In this document: piece after piece, positions 20,095 through 62,700 of the stretch
Numbering within the stretch: the stretch's first letter is position 1
How the letters are laid out: every line of letters starts with the position of its first letter
NCBI GenBank assembly: GCA_009914755.4
Contig: CP068257.2
Coordinates: forward strand, 19,456,001 to 19,520,000
Direction: 5' to 3'
Length of the DNA: 64,000 nucleotides
Source: the human T2T-CHM13v2.0 reference genome, Homo sapiens
Program-made: the position numbers and the translations under genes
The notes under the pieces: generated by a model
The model's database searches: none
Told to the model about the DNA's origin: nothing
The model's input: only the letters and a program-made list of their open reading frames with translations

Positions 20095-20186
20095 CAAAAA
20101 ATAACTCATACAAGGCATTCCCTGGTAGTTTCATGGATCTTTTCATGAGACTACCAGGGAATGCCTTGTATGAGTTATTTTTTTGG
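20095..20186. repeat. Perfect inverted repeat (hairpin): 35-bp arms with 20-bp loop
   Basis: aaaaaaataactcatacaaggcattccctggtagt (20095-20130), loop ttcatggatcttttcatgag, then actaccagggaatgccttgtatgagttattttttt (20151-20186); exact reverse complement, 0 mismatches. Confidence 0.9.
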
Positions 20187-34879: not shown

Positions 34880-35400
34880 GGAGATAATATTTTACATATA
34901 TATGTAATATATAATATTTTACATATATATGTAATATATAATATTTTACATATATATGTAATATATAATATTTTACATATATATGTAATATATAATATTT
35001 TACATATATATGTAATATATAATATATTACATATATTCATACATATGTAATATATAATGTATTACATATATAGAGACAGATATATATATCTATATATAGA
35101 TATATATGTAATATATAATATTTTACATATATAATATGTAATATATAATATATTACATATAATATGTAATATATAATATATTACATATAATATGTAATAT
35201 ATAATATATTACATATATAATATGTAATATATAAAATATATATTACATATATACATATATAATATGCATATAAAACATAATATACATATTTATTAAATAT
35301 ATAAATATATAATATGTTATATATAATATATAATATTTTACGTGTATATATAGAGATATATATATCTATATATAGAGATATATATGTAATAATATTTTAC

Positions 35401-35435
<35 letters not shown>

Positions 35436-54083: not shown

Positions 54084-56220
54084 TCAACATTTCAAATTAC
54101 AAAACAAAATGATAAAATGGCATTCAAAATAACTTAAAAGATAATATCCTTGCCAAATTAGTTCAAGATTATACACTCCAAACCAAAATCATTGCTGAGA
54201 GAAAGCCAATGAAATTCAGATACATGGAGAGACACATGGTGATCATAGATCAGAAGAATCAACATATGTCAAGGTCTCAATTTCCTAAAATCGATCTACA
54301 CATTTCATTCAATCGAAATGTCTGTCTTTTTTTTTCTTAAAGTTAATATTTCCATTCTTTTGACATCTTTGAATTCCCCTTGAAATACAAGAGAAATCCT
54401 CACCACTTTAAGTCAAACACCTCTGTTCCCAAATATCTGACACATCTTCCTTCATTTATTTCTTCTTTCTTCCACTTACATTCATAGATTTAACTACAGA
54501 CAAAGCAAGACTAGGAAATCTAGTCTTGCTAGATGCATCTTGTTTAATGAAATGCTTAAGAAATGGAATATAGGAAAATGTAGAGAAACAAAGGCATAAA
54601 AGCATGTCAACACTAGTACAACTGATCTTTGAAATGTCAGGGGTCGCCGTGTTGTGAAAAGCAAATTAATATAGGACGCTGAAAGAAATAATGATCATGA
54701 AGAATTTAAAAATGTTACTGGCACTGATATGAATATTCTTCAAGCAATATTACTTTATACTAAAATGAATCCCTAATAGAGATTCAAGTTGATATCCACT
54801 GCAGGTTGCTACATCAAAGCATTTTATTTTTTTGATTACTCCACCAAATTTTTCATGGTTTCTTACCATTTAAAAACAAGAAAACCTCTGACAATAATGA
54901 AACAACAATAGAGTGAAGGGTTTTGAAGCCCATGCTAATATGAATTACAAATTATTTTTATAATAGATTCATTCACTATAACAAGAAAAACAACAAAAAC
55001 AAAAATATTTTAAATTGTGCTTACTTGCTTTTGATTATGCATAATGTCCTTCACCGTCTTGAGCATTACTTAGATGTTTTAAAATTGAATAGCTAATTTG
55101 AAATTGAGTATAAACCAAGAACAACTTACTGCAATTTATGTGTCACCACAATGATGATAACAATCTTCATAAAAATTCTTTTGTCCATCAAAGTATGCAA
55201 TATGTCTTATAACAAATTAAATGTTGATCAAAACATTACAGATAAATAGGCATACTTTTTATATAATAAAACCTTTAGTTCCTTGTTGTTCTGCAAAATT
55301 TTTAAGTAGTCTATAAATCTGTATGTTACAAACAATAAAATGAAGCCAAAAAGAAGTGGGTAAGAGGATTATTGCAAAAGGAAGCTATGGATAGTATAGT
55401 ATAACCAACACAAGAGAAGGTATAAATTAAAGATGTATTCAGAAGAGATTTAGAATACCCAGTATGCATGGTACAATTCAGGACACTGAGTACAAAACGA
55501 TAAATAAATAAGATGATTATTTATAATCCATGGATTTAATAGTCTTATAGGGAAGATAGTAACTCAGGTAGAGTGTGATAGATTTAACAATACTACTGTA
55601 CTTAAGGAGCTTGGTAAAATATTGACGATTGTGATTTAATTTGCCCGAAGGAAGAAGAAAGGCCAGGAAGCCTTCACAGAAGAGCTGGCACATAGACAGC
55701 AAAAATGGCAATGTCTTTAAATAGCAGTTCTGCCTGGAAACTTTTGCAACAGAGAAACACGTTTTTTGACAGTTTTTACAAGTAACAATGGCTAAAGTGA
55801 GAATATGAATTTAATAATTTCTATCACAATATGCCATTGTAAAAATTTTAAAAGGTAAGATTTTAGAATATGTGATTATATAAAATACTTATAATATTGG
55901 TTACTGAGTAAAATATTTTAAAATATTATAGTTCATACAAATACACTTTAAGAAAATACACTATTTCCATTGGTGTTATCACAGCCTTACTTTTTATTTT
56001 ATATCCAGGGTTTTTTGTTTTGTTTTGTTTTTTCATGGATTATAAAATGTTATAGAGGGAAAATTGTCTTTCTGACATGAATTTTGATCTGATTCTTCTG
56101 ATCATATGTTTAGGTCTTCTACAGTGATACTTAAATAATCTATAGGGACTGAAATTACTTGGGTGTACTAGGCAGCATTTTCCAGAGAAACAGAACCAAT
56201 ATATACTCAATAGAATATAT

Positions 56221-56330
56221 ATGTGTATGTGTGTGTGTATATGTGATTATATAAAATACTTACAGGATATATATATATATATATATATATATGGATTATA
56301 TAAAATACGTGTATGTGTGTGTGTGTTTTT
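56221..56330. repeat. Compound microsatellite (TG)n/(TA)12/(TG)n with a locally re-duplicated 20-bp motif tgtgattatataaaatact (copies also at 55870)
   Basis: atgtgtatgtgtgtgtgtatatgtgattatataaaatacttacaggatatatatatatatatatatatatggattatataaaatacgtgtatgtgtgtgtgtg. Confidence 0.8.
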
Positions 56331-56581: not shown

Positions 56582-56950
56582 GAACTACTCCAGTACCAGT
56601 GGACTTGCTGAAATCTCGCGCCCTGTCCCACTCCGGAACTCATACCGCTGCCTTCTACTCCGGAACTCAGACCGCTGCCTTCTACTCCGGAACTCAGACC
56701 GCTGCCTTCTACTCCAGCACCAGTGGACTTCCTGAAATCTCGCGCCCTGTCCCACTCCGGAACTCATACGGCTGCCTTCTACTCCGGAACTCATACCCTT
56801 TGCCTTCTACTCCGGAACTGATACCCTTTGCCTTCTAAGCCAGCACTAGTGGACTTCCTGAAATCTCGCGCCCTGTCCCACACCGGAGCTGGTACCGCTG
56901 CCTTCTACTTCAGCACATGGAACTCTGCCTCCGCAGTTCTTAGTCCGTAC
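56582..56950. repeat. GC-rich, CpG-containing hierarchical minisatellite: 27-bp unit (ccggaactcataccgctgccttctact) in triplets, alternating with a ~43-bp block (ccagcaccagtggacttcctgaaatctcgcgccctgtcccact); ~124-bp higher-order period, ~2.8 copies
   Basis: Read directly: 27-bp units at 56623, 56650, 56677, 56748, 56775 (28 bp), 56803 and 56873; 43-bp blocks at 56582, 56704 and 56831. ORFs 56585-56794(-) and 56599-56838(+) with periodic peptides are by-products. Confidence 0.9.
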
Positions 56951-57125: not shown

Positions 57126-57315
57126 CATTTTATTTTTTATTTTTTGAGACAGGGTCTTGCCCTGTCCCCTAGGCTGGAGTGCCGTGGTATACTCATGACT
57201 CACTGTAGCCTCAATATACATACACTAATATATATATACACTAATAATGCAGCCACAGTATACATACATGCCGTGGTATACTCATGACTCACTGCAGCCT
57301 CAGTATACATACACT
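57126..57315 (-). mobile_element. Short Alu 3'-end fragment, with a ~45-bp piece of it plus flank duplicated ~90 bp downstream
   Basis: ttttttgagacagggtcttgccctgtcccctaggctggagtgccgtggtatactcatgactcactgtagcctcaatatacatacact; gccgtggtatactcatgactcactgcagcctcagtatacatacact recurs at 57270-57315. Confidence 0.6.
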
Positions 57316-57349
57316 GTATATATATGTATATATACATACACTAATAAGT

Positions 57350-57533
57350 ATCAACAGATATATATTTAATAAATTTATATATATACACACTAGCGCATAT
57401 GCACACATACATCAAAAACATACATATATACTATATATAATATATAGTAATATAAAAACGTACATGTTTTTGATGTGTGTGCATATGCACTGGTGTGTAT
57501 ATATATAAATTTATTGAATATATATATATCTGT
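57350..57533. repeat. Long AT-rich near-palindrome (~72-bp arms at ~93% identity, ~34-bp AT spacer that is itself partly palindromic)
   Basis: Left arm atcaacagatatatatttaataaatttatatatatacacactagcgcatatgcacacatacatcaaaaacatacat; right arm acgtacatgtttttgatgtgtgtgcatatgcactggtgtgtatatatataaatttattgaatatatatatatctgttgat is its reverse complement. Confidence 0.85.
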
Positions 57534-59121
57534 TGATATGTTTATAAAATACCCTATTTATATAGGATATTTAAATTAGGATAATTTTTCATTCTCTATA
57601 TAATATATAGGATAATAATAGGATGAATAACATATAGGATATATATAAAGTGAAAAGCCAGTGCTGTGATTCCAGTCTGAATCTGAAGACCTGAGAACCG
57701 GGGGCACTGAGGGCAGGATAAGATGGATGTTCCAGCTCAGGCATTGAGGCAGAGAGAGTGCCAATCCTACCTTCCTCCCATTTTCTCCTATTCAGGCTCT
57801 CAATGTATCCTATGCTGTTCAGCCACATTGGGAAGGGCCATGTGCTTTATTTACTCAGCACACCAATTCAAATGCTAATCTTTTTTAGAAACAACTGTAT
57901 AAACATACTCAGAAATTATGTTTGATCAGATATCTGGGCAGCCTGTGTTCAGTCAAGTTAACACATAAAATTAATCATCACAGAGGATGTGTACTTAATT
58001 ATTTTGACCTCATAAATGAAGGCTTTCTCTAACTTTAATACTGTGGAACAAGCAGGGATACACAGCATGCCTAAGCAAAAATGCAAATAACTGGTGATAG
58101 TTTCTACTGGAAGATACTTCACAGGTAGGGGCACGTCTCTTTGACTGCTTTGTCATCAAACAGCCTCTCTGGAAAAATTTATTTGTCCTTGTAGGGAGAA
58201 GAAGATACTGTTAAAGTGGAGATTTTAAAATAAACCTAAAGTATGCAGATATACAGTGTTCAACACCAAAAACCTTAAGAACAGACATCTTCATTTTAAA
58301 TTTTCCTTTAGAATCTTTAAAAGTAGATAAGAATCCTAGGCCTGAAGCTTTTTTTGAGAGACGCTTTTTTAGGAACTGCTGTAAGAAGTATTCATAAGTA
58401 CTTAAGTTGTCATAGTTATTAATAGTTCTGAGAATTTCCCTTAGATTTCCCAGTATATTCAGTTGATGTTCAAATCTTTGCAGAGAAGTTGACCTGAAGG
58501 AGAATTAGGAAATTAACAGAATTAGAAAATAATTATAATCTGGGAATTATTCTTACAGTAGAAATAGTGTCAGTCTAAAGTTGTATATCTCATACCATAT
58601 TTACTAAAATTATTTATTTTGCTGGTAAGGCATGCATAAGCCACAGTGTATTTCCAAAAGAATATCCAGCTCTTTCAATGACGATTACTAATGTCCCTTT
58701 TCAAATTTAATGATTATAGGACCTTAGTTCAAATAAAAATACTGTATATATGTGGTTCTATTTCTGGACTCTATTATGTTCCATGAATCTGTATTTCTAT
58801 CATTATTCCAGCACTAAATTGTCTGGATATCTGTAAGTTTGTATAAAATCTTGAAATAAGGTAATGCACACTGTCTTTGTTCTTTATTGGAAAAATATTT
58901 TGGCTATTTGAGGTCTTCCTTTTCCATATAAATTTAAAACCTTCTTGGCAATTTTCTCAAAAAAAGTCTGCAGTTCATTTTTGGAGAATTACATTGAATC
59001 TATAGGTCAACTTGGAGATAATTGATATATTAGTAATATAGATTTTTCCAATTCAAGGTCATGGAATATTTCTCAATTTATTTAGATCTCTTTTAACTTC
59101 AGGAACTTTGTCTACTTTTTG

Positions 59122-59790
59122 ATTTTTTATTTTACCTTAAGTTCTGGGATACATGTGCAGAATGTGCAGGTTTGTTACATAGGTATACATGTGCCTTGGT
59201 GGTTTGCTGCACGTATCAACCCATCATCTAGGTTTTAAGCCCTGCATGCATTAGGTATTTATCCTAATGCTCTCCCTCCCCTTGCCCCCCACCCCCCGAC
59301 AGGGCCCGGTGTGTGCTGTTTCCCTCCCTGTGCCCATGTGTTCTCATTTTTCAACTCCCACTTATCAGTGAGCACGTGTGGTGTTTGGTTTTGTTCCTGT
59401 GTTAGTTTGCTGAAAATGATGGCTTCCAGCTTCATCCATGTCCTTACAAAGGACATGATCTCATTGTTTTTTATGGCTGCATAGTATTACATGGTGTATA
59501 TGTGCCACATTTTCTTTATCCTGTCTATCATTGATGGGGCATTTGAGTTGGTTCCAAGTCTTTGCTATTGTAAATAATGTTTCAATAAACATACATGTGC
59601 CTGTTTCTTTATAGTAGAATGATTTATAATCCTTTGGGTATATAGCCCATAATGGGATTGCTGGATCAAATGGTGTTTCTAGTTCTAGATCCTTTAGGAA
59701 TTGCCACACTATTTTCCACAACGGTTGAACTAATTTACAGTCCCACCAACAGTGTAAAAGCGTCCCTATTTCTCCACAGCCTTCTACTTT
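59122..59790 (-). mobile_element. L1 LINE 3' end (young L1PA-like): ORF2 C-terminus plus 3' UTR, tail end at ~59122
   Basis: ttttttattttaccttaagttctgggatacatgtgcagaatgtgcaggtttgttacataggtatacatgtgcc... is the reverse complement of the L1 3' terminus; minus-strand ORFs 59259-59456 (MSFVRTWMKLEAIIFSKLTQEQ...) and 59461-59721 (...TIAKTWNQLKCP...) match the L1 ORF2 C-terminal protein. Confidence 0.9.
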
Positions 59791-62700
59791 TATGTGTTTA
59801 GGTTCCTTATATATTATGTGAAATTTTTTTCTAAATATTTTGTGTTTTTATTACTGTAAATGGTATTGTGTTTATAGCAAAGGTATTTTTCTTTGTGGAT
59901 ATAGAAATACAATTAATTATTGCATGTTGAGCAGTACCTTGCAAATATATTTACTTATTCTTATAGTTTTTTAAAATGTAATTTCTGCGAGTTGCTTACA
60001 AATTATTTGTGAATTAGTTTTACTTCTTGCCAAGATTTATACTTTTTTCTTTGTTTTCTTGCCTAGTCTGCTGCCTAGGGATTCCAGAAAAATTGTGAAT
60101 AGAGGTGATGAGAACAGATATCCTTGTCTTGTTCCTGATTTCAGGGAGAAAATATGCAAATTTTCACTATCAAATATGAGGTTAAATGTAGACTTTTAAA
60201 AGAGATTCTTGATCAGATTGAGGAAATGTTCTTATATTCCTAGTTTGCTATTTTATTATTAATTGATGTTGAATTTTGTCAGATTTTGGAGGCATCTATC
60301 TTTATGATCATATGGTTTTTATCTTTTATTTTATATATGTGATAACTTCCATTGTTTGATTTCCATTCTTGGGATAAATCCAGCTTCATCATGATATTGT
60401 CTGTGGTATATATTGTTAGATTCATTTTTCTTATATTTTCTTTTGGATTTCTGTGTCTATATTAGTGATGGTATTGTTTTCTGGTAATATATTTTTCTGC
60501 ATTTGGTATAAAGATAATGATATTTTTATAAAATTAATTGGGAAGTGTTCTCTGTTGATTTTAATTGGGAAGTGCTCTCTGTTGATTTTATGAAAAAGTT
60601 TATAGAAGCTGGATGCTATTTTTTCTTAAATGGTTGACAAAATTTATGGGCTATGTCATCTTGGCTAACTTTTTTTTGTGGGAAGATTTTAAAAATATAA
60701 TATATTTTTAATCGTGATATGTTTGATTGATACCATTCTTGTGTCAGTTTTGGTGGGTTTTGTCTTTCAAGGAGATTAGGATGATTAAATTTATATTTTT
60801 ATTTTCCAGTGTTATTTAAATCAATTAAAAAAACACTTCTGCATCTGGCAATTTAGATATATTTTTATTACCTATTTTGAATGTGATTCCTTAGGTTTAG
60901 ATAATATAATCTGGAGGATTTAGTCATATTACACTTTAGACTTAATTATGTTCCAGAATATTAAGTATCTTAGATAATATTTAATGTGTATTTTTTATCA
61001 TTATACTTCAAATTGTAAGGTACATGTGCACAACGTGCATGTTTGTTACAACATGTGCCATGTTGGTGTGCTGCACCTCATTTAATGTGTGTTTGAAAAG
61101 ACTATTCAGTAGTTGTTGGTTGTAGTGTATTATTAATGGTTATTAGGTAAAGTTTGCTAATAGGCTAATTCACATCTTCTAAATTCTGACCTAGTTTAGT
61201 CTACCTGTTTTACTTTCTCAGAGTGGAATGGTATAGCCTCTACCTATAATTGTTGATTGATTCCTGTTAATTCTGTCAGGATTTCCTTTCAGTTCTTCAG
61301 GTATTTGGAAGCGCTGGTAGTGGCATACACGTACAGGATTTTTATGTCTTTCTTGTGAAATGATTCTTATTATTTGAAATGACCTCCGTTATATCTAATC
61401 ATGTTGTAATAAACTTGGGTCCTGATACTAATAGAGACTTCCCAGCCATCATATGATTAGTGTTTGCATGATGTGTTTTTCCATGCTTATGTTTTTAAAT
61501 CTGTTTCCATTCTTTTCTCGTTTGCATTATTTCTGATGCACTGTCACCATTGTTCTTATTTGTTCTTTTGTGCATTAAGTGACTTTTTTCTCTAGCTGCT
61601 CTCAAGATTTTAATTCTTGATTTTTAGAAATATTGTTATGATATACCTCATTATAATTTCTTTATGTGTATCCTAATTAGAGATTATTAAGTTTTTTTGA
61701 ATTTGTGGGTTTGTATTGCTTAATAAAATGTGGAAATTTTCCACTATATATTTCTTCAGTCATTTTATGCCCTCTCTTCTGGAACTCTAACTCCATGTAT
61801 GTTGGACTGGCTGACGTTTTATCACAGTCAATGACTGATGCTTTGCTCATTTATTTTTTTCTCTCCATGTTTCAGTTTGGATAATTTTAATTGTGATGTC
61901 CTAAAGTTTACTATTTTTCTTCTGTTAAGCACAGCCAGTGAGCATTTAATTTAGATTTTGTACTTATAGCTTTAAAGTTCCGTTTTATTTTTTCCCAATG
62001 GTTTCCATTTCCCTTTATCCTGATTTATATTTTCCTTCAAATCCTCGAATATATATGCTAATTCCATTTTATTTTTCATTTATATATATTTCTGTGGATA
62101 TATTTTCTCCTGCTTGTGGGTCACATTTCCATGAATTTTCAGTAGTCTACTGTTTTTTGTTATATGTTGGTCGTCGTGATTATCATATTGTTGAGTTTCT
62201 AGACGTTGGTATTTTCCTTTAAAGCAGATTGTATTACTTTGTGGCAACAATTGAAACATTTCAGGGTTAAGATGATCTGCTTAAGCCCTGTTTTAAAGTA
62301 TTTTAGGCTAGACTTTGTGGAGCCAGTACTCTAGAAGTAGCTTAGTTCTACTTCACCGTTTTGGGTTTTTTGGGGTCTGTATTGAATATTCCAGTTACTC
62401 AACAAATCACTGTACTCTGCCTTAATGGAACTTGGAAATCTCTCAGCAACCTGAGTTCTGGTAGCGTTCCAGTTTACCACTCTCCAGTAGTTGTTGTTTC
62501 CCTCTCTAAGATTAGCTTAGTATTCAACTACAGACTCAATGGGACACTTATGCTGATGTCTGGAGCTCCTTCTATGTAGCCTCCTGTTCTATAATAATCT
62601 GACATAAACTTTAGCCATCTTAACTCCTGTAAAGTTGCGTATGTGTCTTCATAGCACATAGAAACCACTGTGCCATTTTCCCCCTCAGTATTGTGTCTGG

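What the first reader, a model, noticed from the sequence alone, without database searches (positions are those of the whole stretch)
57126..57560. PATRR-like long AT-rich palindrome immediately downstream of the minisatellite, inside a cluster of local duplications
Positions 57350-57533 form a ~185-bp near-palindrome. The arms are about 72 bp at about 93% identity, and the AT-rich spacer is itself palindromic. Just upstream sit an Alu 3'-end stub and a 45-bp piece of it that is copied about 90 bp away. One arm reads gcgc where the other reads gcac, a difference consistent with CpG decay after duplication, so the palindrome is old and has persisted. Long AT-rich palindromes can extrude cruciforms. 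In human DNA they are known hotspots for double-strand breaks, deletions and recurrent translocations, for example the PATRRs on 11q23 and 22q11. The region 56.2-57.6 kb therefore contains a compound microsatellite, a CpG minisatellite and a long palindrome within 1.4 kb, which marks it as a candidate unstable or fragile micro-region.
Basis: partly seen in the sequence, partly recalled or inferred. Interest (0 to 1): 0.6.

Follow-up and report, generated by a model that had tools for sequence, protein, structure and literature searches.

The report
Decayed AT-rich quasi-palindrome in primate DNA
A real 190-bp AT-rich inverted repeat sits in repeat-rich, gene-poor primate DNA and can fold into a strong hairpin, but it is too imperfect and too GC-interrupted to count as a PATRR-type breakage hotspot, so it looks like an ordinary decayed local inverted duplication.

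Summary
Positions 57349-57538 form a 190-bp quasi-palindrome with arms of 73 and 75 nt. The arms differ by 2 substitutions and 3 indels, giving 89.6% identity with gaps and 97.2% without. As single-stranded DNA it folds at -62 kcal/mol (z = -14.9). The Alu 3'-end stub, the duplicated 47-bp piece 89 bp away and the gcgc/gcac difference are also real.

The PATRR interpretation is only partly supported. The element is 78% AT, against more than 90% for PATRRs. Its mid-arms are only about 60% AT. Central symmetry breaks after a 9-bp stem because the linkers are unequal (8 and 15 nt). The duplex-to-hairpin cost is about 40 kcal/mol per strand. Published PATRR11 alleles cost 8-26.5 kcal/mol, and the asymmetric ones almost never translocate. 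A perfect palindrome of this size would cost about 5.

It is not the Xq27.1 hotspot palindrome (0 of 14 locus primers match). I found no NF1 or globin exons, which argues against PATRR17 and the beta-globin palindrome. A second AT-rich hairpin-forming tract with the same z-score lies at 34.9-35.4 kb, so such features are not rare here.

The best reading is a non-functional fold-back duplication in a TA/CA-rich tract. It can form hairpins during replication but is a poor cruciform former. Population instability could not be tested.

The parts
57126..57212 (-). 3'-end stub of an Alu element on the minus strand. The T-rich tract at 57126-57145 is its poly(A) tail read in reverse complement.
   Evidence: Eleven other Alu copies in the window match the stub at 70-78% identity.
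57180..57348 (+). Tandem duplication of about 89 bp (57180-57268 and 57269-57348). Each copy starts with the last 33 nt of the Alu stub and continues into TA/CA-rich sequence. A 21-nt sub-repeat (TGCAGCCNCAGTATACATACA) occurs three times at 44-45 bp spacing.
   Evidence: families D5 (47 nt, 96%, spacing 89) and D8; TRF period 45, 3.0 copies; global alignment of the two copies.
57349..57421 (+). Left arm of the quasi-palindrome (73 nt). The outer 37 nt are 92% AT and the inner 36 nt are 61% AT (CACACTAGCGCATATGCACACATACATCAAAAACAT).
57422..57429 (+). Left linker of 8 nt (ACATATAT) between the arm and the central core.
57430..57448 (.). Perfect 19-bp central palindrome (ACTATATAT A ATATATAGT). 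The central 20 bp are 90% AT. This is the only place where cruciform nucleation could start.
   Evidence: it forms the apical stem in the folds.
57449..57463 (+). Right linker of 15 nt (AATATAAAAACGTAC), 7 nt longer than the left one. It breaks the central symmetry and forms its own small hairpin with the start of the right arm (AAAAAC / GTTTTT).
   Evidence: and the bulges in the folds. The small hairpin is read directly from the sequence.
57464..57538 (+). Right arm (75 nt), the reverse complement of the left arm apart from 2 substitutions (one at a CpG) and 3 indels in TA or CA runs.
57555..57654 (+). AT-rich short tandem repeats (periods 11, 13 and 27) that continue the low-complexity block to the right of the palindrome.
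56590..56909 (+). Neighbouring minisatellite with a 124-bp unit repeated 2.6 times and nested 27/28-bp units. It is 57% GC with a CpG observed/expected ratio of 0.74, against 0.26 for the whole window.
56220..56326 (+). Compound TG/TA microsatellite: (TATGTG)n, then (AT)13, then (TG)n, with a duplicated GATTATATAAAATAC motif.

Best explanation
This is a non-coding, non-functional quasi-palindrome. It most likely arose from a local inverted (fold-back or template-switch) duplication inside a TA/CA-rich low-complexity tract next to a truncated Alu. It has since decayed by point substitutions, slippage indels in its TA/CA runs, and a 7-nt asymmetry near the centre.

Its likely behaviour is as follows. 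When the region is single-stranded, for example on a lagging-strand template, either strand can fold into a hairpin of about 90 bp with bulges, at about -62 kcal/mol. Such a hairpin could pause polymerases and favour slippage or template switching. That fits the tandem duplications and short repeats packed around it.

In duplex DNA it should be a poor cruciform former. Only a 9-bp AT stem can nucleate before the unequal linkers block branch migration. Full extrusion costs about 40 kcal/mol per strand, roughly nine times the cost for a perfect palindrome of the same size.

What is shown: the anatomy, the folding energies, and the exclusion of three known loci. What is inferred: the fold-back origin, the replication-slippage behaviour, and the low breakage risk.
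For: The palindrome is real and non-random. The arms contain a non-self-complementary 36-nt segment at 61% AT that is copied in inverted orientation, so this is a true inverted duplication and not TA self-complementarity. There is a single axis of symmetry and the flanks beyond TATCAACAG / CTGTTGATA are unrelated. All three arm indels lie in TA or CA runs, and one of the two substitutions is at a CpG. The surrounding 1.4 kb is dense in tandem duplications. Cruciform minus duplex is +79 kcal/mol, against +9 for idealised perfect versions. The Kato-style dG is 39.8 kcal/mol, against 8.1-26.5 for PATRR11 alleles. Published work shows that central symmetry and length control extrusion and instability. 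No coding exon or Rfam gene lies nearby, only an L1 ORF2 remnant. A second AT-rich hairpin-forming tract with the same z-score lies in the same 64 kb. A catalogue cited in a review counts about 180,000 human palindromes longer than 40 bp.
Against: No orthologous or allelic sequence could be obtained, so neither the origin nor the stability of the locus was observed directly. My energies use ViennaRNA DNA parameters, whereas the published PATRR values came from mfold, so the comparison is approximate. Kato et al. found that their in-silico dG did not correlate significantly with translocation frequency (r = 0.37), while in-vitro extrusion did, so the energy argument alone is weak. The 180-bp Xq27.1 palindrome shows that an element of this size can be a strong rearrangement hotspot. 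The assembled allele may not be the most symmetric allele in the population.
Confidence: 0.7

Rival explanations
1. It is a genuine PATRR-type hotspot. The palindrome extrudes a cruciform in vivo, for example under transcription- or chromatin-driven negative supercoiling in the germline. The cruciform is cut at its tip and seeds translocations, insertions or deletions, as at 11q23, 22q11, 17q11 or Xq27.1.
For: The length (190 bp) equals that of PATRR17-long (187 bp) and is close to the 180-bp Xq27.1 palindrome. The central 20 bp are 90% AT with 2 G/C, inside the 1-3 GC range reported for all PATRRs. The hairpin is strong, with z = -14.9. There is another AT-rich region on one side and a cluster of local rearrangements.
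Against: AT content is 78%, not over 90%, and the arms are not near-perfect (89.6% with gaps). The linkers are asymmetric (8 and 15 nt) next to a 9-bp core. dG is 39.8 kcal/mol, above every PATRR11 allele, including the asymmetric ones that give fewer than 1e-7 translocations. Even the near-perfect PATRR17-long shows negligible extrusion at physiological salt, and a 9-bp spacer plus 4 mismatches silenced PATRR22. The window is not the Xq27.1 locus and shows no NF1 or globin exons.
Confidence: 0.08
2. It is a relic of a non-autonomous DNA transposon (MITE). The two arms are terminal inverted repeats and the TA on each side is a Tc1/mariner-type target-site duplication.
For: The palindrome is bounded by TA|TCAACAG...CTGTTGA|TA. 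The size is typical of MITEs. Another compact palindrome with 40-nt arms at 98% lies at 20096-20183 in the same window.
Against: TA is itself palindromic, so the apparent duplication is simply the outermost base pair step of the inverted repeat. No 8-bp or TTAA duplication is present, as read from the sequence. The whole element, not just its ends, is inverted-repeat, and much of it is TA/CA simple sequence. No other copy of the arm or mid-arm exists in the 64-kb window. No exact match to the arm pattern was found in three public contig collections, although those hold little primate DNA and the exact-match scan would miss old, diverged copies.
Confidence: 0.07
3. It is a hairpin RNA gene, either a miRNA or an endo-siRNA precursor of the TA/TG-rich kind such as mir-3149 or mir-297.
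For: Sub-threshold Rfam matches to mir-3149 on both strands (49.7 and 41.6 bits, E = 4e-8 and 5e-6) and weaker ones to mir-297, mir-568 and others.
Against: The best score is half the family's gathering score of 100. The alignment needs a 37-nt insertion in the loop and is driven by CA/TG-rich stems. Hits on both strands and to unrelated plant families (MIR530, MIR6217) point to a composition and hairpin artefact. No family reaches its gathering score anywhere in the window. There is no evidence of transcription.
Confidence: 0.03
4. It is only chance self-complementarity of a TA-rich low-complexity tract and not a true inverted duplication.
For: (TA)n-like sequence is self-complementary. Many weak inverted matches exist between TA-rich tracts in the window.
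Against: None of 200 dinucleotide-preserving shuffles folds as well, with z = -14.85. The 36-nt mid-arm at 61% AT is not self-complementary simple sequence, yet it matches its partner at 89% with E = 6.5e-7. A 36-mer from the arm has no other match within 3 mismatches in the window, with 0 expected.
Confidence: 0.02

Closest known systems
PATRR17 (palindromic AT-rich repeat in NF1 intron 31; long allele 187 bp, short allele 161 bp)
   Same: Nearly the same length. Both are AT-rich palindromes with an AT-rich centre. In having an asymmetric region around the centre, this element resembles the short PATRR17 allele, which did not extrude a cruciform under any condition tested.
   Different: PATRR17-long is a nearly perfect palindrome with 94-nt arms, whereas this element has 3 arm indels, 2 substitutions and unequal central linkers. 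No neurofibromin-matching ORF was found in the window, so it does not appear to be that locus. No translocation breakpoint is known here.
Xq27.1 human-specific 180-bp palindrome near SOX3 (a hotspot for interchromosomal insertions)
   Same: Similar size, an intergenic and repeat-rich AT-rich setting, and flanking SINE and LINE elements.
   Different: None of the 14 published primers from that locus matches the window with up to 3 mismatches. The Xq27.1 arms are described as exact inverted copies, whereas these arms have diverged.
PATRR11 and PATRR22 (about 450 and 590 bp; the recurrent t(11;22))
   Same: The same class of structure: an AT-rich inverted repeat able to form a hairpin or cruciform, with an AT-rich centre.
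   Different: They are two to three times longer, more than 90% AT, nearly perfect and spacer-free. Their dG is 11-18 kcal/mol, against about 40 here.
Generic human quasi-palindromes and inverted repeats, as in the Ganapathiraju et al. 2020 catalogue cited in review PMC7999016
   Same: It is intergenic or intronic and AT-rich, and it has mismatches and a spacer. It is one of a very large population: about 180,000 palindromes longer than 40 bp and 718 longer than 200 bp under a strict no-gap, at most 4-mismatch definition.
   Different: At 190 bp overall it is towards the long end. Under that catalogue's strict definition only its short central core would be counted.
mir-3149 and mir-297 type TA/TG-rich miRNA hairpins (Rfam RF04176 and RF04217)
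   Same: A hairpin whose stems are built from CA/TG and TA repeats.
   Different: It scores 49.7 bits against a gathering score of 100 and has a 37-nt extra loop. It is not a member.

Membership tests
PATRR (palindromic AT-rich repeat) | Length of several hundred bp; the shortest accepted member, PATRR17, is about 187-200 bp | tested here: met
   190 bp (57349-57538). This is only at the very bottom of the range given.
PATRR (palindromic AT-rich repeat) | Extreme AT-richness (more than 90% AT) | tested here: not met
   78.4% AT overall. The mid-arms are 59-61% AT and only the outer arms and centre reach 86-92%.
PATRR (palindromic AT-rich repeat) | Nearly perfect palindrome without a spacer, with central symmetry | tested here: not met
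   The arms are 89.6% identical with 3 indels. A perfect 19-bp core is flanked by unequal linkers of 8 and 15 nt.
PATRR (palindromic AT-rich repeat) | AT-rich centre (1-3 G/C in the central 20 bp) | tested here: met
   The central 20 bp (57430-57449) are 90% AT, with 2 G/C.
PATRR (palindromic AT-rich repeat) | Low free-energy cost of going from duplex to hairpin (published range 8-26.5 kcal/mol for PATRR11 alleles) | tested here: not met
   39.8 kcal/mol with the same formula, Gds/2 - Gstru (against the table). The parameter sets differ (ViennaRNA DNA versus mfold), so the comparison is approximate.
PATRR (palindromic AT-rich repeat) | Constitutional translocation or insertion breakpoints clustered at the palindrome centre | not testable with these tools
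   No human structural-variant or breakpoint resource is available, and the locus could not be mapped to a chromosome.
PATRR (palindromic AT-rich repeat) | Size and symmetry polymorphism among individuals | not testable with these tools
   Scans of the metagenome, genome and viral contig collections for the arm and for a unique flank gave 0 hits.
Xq27.1 180-bp palindrome locus | Published flanking primers (HSPF, HSPR, R-TSP1 and 2, GP-P-F, GW-SP1 to 6 and others) lie within about 2 kb of the palindrome | tested here: not met
   0 of 14 primers found on either strand with up to 3 mismatches.
PATRR17 / NF1 intron 31 locus | NF1 exons, or the OMG, EVI2A and EVI2B ORFs, within tens of kb | tested here: not met
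   No match to neurofibromin or any other solved protein except L1 ORF2 among ORFs at 56.5-62 kb or among the 44 longest non-Alu ORFs at 1-56.5 kb. The longest ORF in the window is 152 aa. The expected exon sizes are from memory.
Beta-globin cluster 160-bp palindrome | Globin genes within about 30 kb | tested here: not met
MITE / non-autonomous DNA transposon | Terminal inverted repeats with a target-site duplication, and multiple dispersed copies | tested here: inconclusive
   Only a TA flanks each end, and it cannot be told apart from the palindrome itself. No other copy exists in the window. No primate genome or Dfam library was available to count copies.
mir-3149 (Rfam RF04176) | Score at or above the family's gathering threshold of 100 bits | tested here: not met
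   49.7 bits on the plus strand and 41.6 on the minus strand. Nothing in the window reaches a gathering score.

The most novel reading that the evidence does not exclude
The assembled sequence could be a decayed or minor allele of a polymorphic palindrome whose more symmetric alleles act as an uncharacterised hotspot of the Xq27.1 or PATRR17 kind. In that case the truncated Alu and the pile-up of local duplications around it would be scars of past palindrome-induced breaks.
Probability: 0.05. Interest if true: 0.5.

Novelty: new member of a known kind. Interest (0 to 1): 0.15.

Why it matters
If the palindrome were a real hotspot, it would add a locus to the short list of human palindromes that cause recurrent translocations or insertions, and it would flag a region that short-read sequencing probably covers poorly. 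As the evidence stands, its main value is as a calibration case. Length, AT-richness and a strong single-strand hairpin are not enough to call something PATRR-like. Central symmetry, arm perfection and the duplex-to-hairpin cost have to be checked as well, and this element fails all three. A second tract in the same 64 kb with an equally extreme folding z-score shows that such signals are common in AT-rich primate DNA.

Tried and rejected
1. I looked for other copies of the arms. The arm pattern GCATATGCACACAN{0,4}CATCAAAAACAT gave 0 hits in the metagenome, genome and viral contig collections. A unique 24-mer from the right flank gave 0 hits in the metagenome and genome collections. No orthologue, second haplotype or family member could therefore be obtained. 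These collections contain little primate DNA, so the negative result says little.

2. I tried to identify the locus through coding exons. Stop-to-stop ORFs were searched against PDB sequences and only an L1 ORF2 remnant at about 59.2-60.5 kb on the minus strand matched. The chromosome remains unknown.

3. I tested whether the window is one of three known palindromes of similar size. Xq27.1 was rejected with published primers. No NF1 exon was found, which argues against PATRR17. No globin exon was found, which argues against the beta-globin palindrome.

4. I tested the miRNA reading. Only sub-threshold Rfam hits driven by composition were found.

5. I tested the MITE reading. No informative target-site duplication and no second copy in the window were found. 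This could not be settled without Dfam.

6. I tried to read the two primary PATRR17 papers (PMC2818517 and PMC1180249). Neither is held.

7. A literature search for 'PATRR17' together with 'intron 31' and 'NF1' returned nothing.
Full report
**Setting.** The window is primate genomic DNA at 33.8% GC, with a dozen or more Alu copies. There is an L1 ORF2 remnant on the minus strand at about 59.2-60.5 kb. I found no coding exon in the ORFs I searched and no Rfam family at its gathering score anywhere in the window. I could not assign it to a chromosome.

- The arms are 57349-57421 (73 nt) and 57464-57538 (75 nt).
- They share 69 matches, 2 substitutions and 6 gap columns in 3 indels. That is 89.6% identity with gaps and 97.2% without.
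- As single-stranded DNA the region folds at -62.8 kcal/mol. Two hundred dinucleotide-preserving shuffles average -20.3 +/- 2.9, so z = -14.85 and no shuffle does as well.
- It is not just TA self-complementarity. Each arm carries a 36-nt segment at 59-61% AT (CACACTAGCGCATATGCACACATACATCAAAAACAT) that is not simple sequence. It matches its inverted partner at 89% (E = 6.5e-7) and has no other significant match in the window, only a few chance-level alignments with E of 0.25 or more.

- Positions 57140-57212 plus the T-rich tail at 57126-57145 are the 3' end of a minus-strand Alu.
- A 47-nt piece starting inside that stub recurs 89 bp downstream at 96% identity (family D5). It is part of a tandem duplication of about 89 bp covering 57180-57348.
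- One arm reads GCGC where the other reads GCAC.
- TRF confirms the compound TG/TA microsatellite at about 56.22-56.33 kb and the 124-bp/27-bp minisatellite at 56590-56909.
- One correction is needed. The spacer is only partly palindromic. It contains a perfect 19-bp core (ACTATATAT-A-ATATATAGT, 57430-57448). The linkers joining that core to the arms are 8 nt on the left and 15 nt on the right, so the core lies 3.5 bp off the axis of the arms.

**Is it a known palindrome?** Three characterised human palindromes have about this size. They are PATRR17-long (187 bp, NF1 intron 31), the 180-bp Xq27.1 palindrome near SOX3, and a 160-bp palindrome upstream of beta-globin.

- Xq27.1: I took 14 primers published for that locus, several of them within 2 kb of the palindrome. 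None matches the window on either strand with up to 3 mismatches.
- NF1: full-length neurofibromin is in the PDB sequence set. Neither the ORFs at 56.5-62 kb nor the 44 longest non-Alu ORFs from the rest of the window match it. The longest ORF in the window is 152 aa, which rules out the OMG and EVI2B ORFs that I recall lying nearby.

So this is not the Xq27.1 palindrome, and I found no sign of the NF1 or beta-globin loci. It appears to be an uncharacterised palindrome.

**Does it meet the PATRR definition?** The literature describes PATRRs as several hundred bp long, more than 90% AT, and nearly perfect palindromes without a spacer. They have only 1-3 G/C in the central 20 bp. Length and central symmetry are the variables that control cruciform extrusion and instability.

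| Criterion | This element | Result |
|---|---|---|
| Length | 190 bp | Met, at the extreme low end |
| AT-rich centre | 2 G/C in the central 20 bp | Met |
| More than 90% AT | 78.4% overall, about 60% in the mid-arms | Not met |
| Near-perfect arms | 89.6% identity with 3 indels | Not met |
| No spacer, central symmetry | Unequal linkers of 8 and 15 nt | Not met |

**Energetics.** I used ViennaRNA DNA parameters.

- The two hairpins are -62.1 and -62.6 kcal/mol and the duplex is -203.9. A cruciform therefore costs +79 kcal/mol. Mirroring either arm to make a perfect palindrome gives +9.
- In the form used by Kato et al. 2011 (Gds/2 - Gstru), the cost is 39.8 kcal/mol per strand.
- Their table gives 10.9-17.9 for the long symmetric PATRR11 alleles, which translocate at about 1e-5 per sperm. 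It gives 14.7-26.5 for asymmetric alleles, three of which were below detection at under 2e-7.
- Caveats: they used mfold, and their in-silico dG did not itself correlate significantly with frequency, whereas in-vitro extrusion did.

**Experimental yardsticks.** Kogo et al. 2007 found negligible extrusion at physiological salt for the near-perfect PATRR17-long and none under any condition for the centrally asymmetric PATRR17-short. A 9-bp central spacer plus four nearby mismatches abolished both extrusion and instability in E. coli for a PATRR22 construct of about 590 bp. The element here is as short as PATRR17 and less perfect than PATRR22-quasi. The expectation, by inference, is that it forms hairpins but is a poor cruciform former.

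**What it most likely is.** The single symmetry axis, the unrelated flanks and the inverted copy of a non-simple segment point to a local inverted duplication. I infer that a fold-back or template switch seeded on a short TA palindrome within a TA/CA-rich tract.

- The later changes are what neutral decay predicts: indels in TA/CA runs and a CpG transition.
- The extra sequence in the right linker creates its own small hairpin (AAAAAC...GTTTTT), read from the sequence. This resembles a templated quasi-palindrome mutation, which is again inference.
- Dating is almost uninformative. Two substitutions in 71 sites give a point estimate of 14-28 Myr and a 95% interval of roughly 2-100 Myr. 'Old and persistent' is plausible but not shown.
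- The dense local duplications fit a region prone to replication slippage. That is correlation, not demonstration.

**Rivals.**

- MITE: the only target-site duplication is a TA that cannot be distinguished from the palindrome itself, and there is no second copy in the window. Without Dfam this cannot be fully excluded.
- miRNA or hairpin RNA: the mir-3149 hit reaches 49.7 bits against a gathering score of 100, needs a 37-nt loop insertion, appears on both strands and is accompanied by plant miRNA families. This points to a composition artefact.
- Chance self-complementarity: rejected.

**Context.** The same window has a 532-bp tract that is 91% AT, built from about 19 copies of a self-complementary 27-bp unit (34884-35415). 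Its folding z-score is -14.9, the same as the target. There is also a compact 88-bp palindrome with 98% arms at 20096-20183. A published catalogue counts about 180,000 human palindromes longer than 40 bp. Hairpin-forming AT-rich tracts are therefore common, which lowers the surprise of this one.

**Limits.** No allelic or orthologous sequence and no breakpoint database could be reached. The Xq27.1 example shows that a 180-bp palindrome can be a strong hotspot when its arms are exact copies, so a residual probability of about 5% remains that more symmetric alleles of this locus are unstable.

**Verdict.** The feature is real and accurately described. It is best filed as an ordinary decayed AT-rich quasi-palindrome and not as a PATRR. 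Interest is low.

Noticed in passing
window 34884-35415: A 532-bp tract that is 91% AT and built from about 19 copies of a self-complementary 27-bp unit (ATAATATTTTACATATATATGTAATAT). It contains many zero-spacer palindromes with 56-84 nt arms at 82-91% identity. It folds into several hairpins with z = -14.9. By composition and length it is more PATRR-like, or more like an AT-rich fragile-site minisatellite, than the finding itself.
   Followed up: partly
window 20096-20183: A compact 88-bp palindrome with 40-nt arms at 98% complementarity and an 8-nt spacer (AAAAAATAACTCATACAAGGCATTCCCTGGTAGTTTCATG). It is not simple sequence, it is 65% AT, and its dG is only 11.7 kcal/mol. It looks like a MITE-type element or a recent fold-back. 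It has no Rfam match at gathering score.
   Followed up: partly
window 56590-56930: The minisatellite (124-bp unit repeated 2.6 times, with nested 27/28-bp units) is 57% GC with a CpG observed/expected ratio of 0.74. It sits in a window at 34% GC with a ratio of 0.26. CpG has been retained unusually well for non-coding repeat DNA, which suggests either a young expansion or an unmethylated state.
   Followed up: no
window 57449-57469: The extra sequence in the right linker gives AAAAAC-GTACAT-GTTTTT, a small local hairpin that duplicates in inverted form the AAAAAC of the arm. This looks like a templated quasi-palindrome mutation and is the main cause of the central asymmetry.
   Followed up: no
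window 56199-56326: The compound microsatellite has a mirror-like layout: TG-rich, then GATTATATAAAATAC, then (TA)13, then GATTATATAAAATAC, then TG-rich. The 15-nt motif is a direct repeat on either side of the (TA) run.
   Followed up: no
window ~59240-60500, minus strand: A LINE-1 ORF2 remnant. Residues around 1118-1266 and 578-685 of human L1 ORF2p match, with E = 1.8e-53. This is the only protein homology found near the palindrome.
   Followed up: yes
window 57650-57990: The sequence immediately to the right of the AT-rich block looks to me like an old interspersed repeat, ending in ...GTCAAGTTAACACATAAAATTAATCATCACA. I could not name the family from memory and no repeat library was available.
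   Followed up: no
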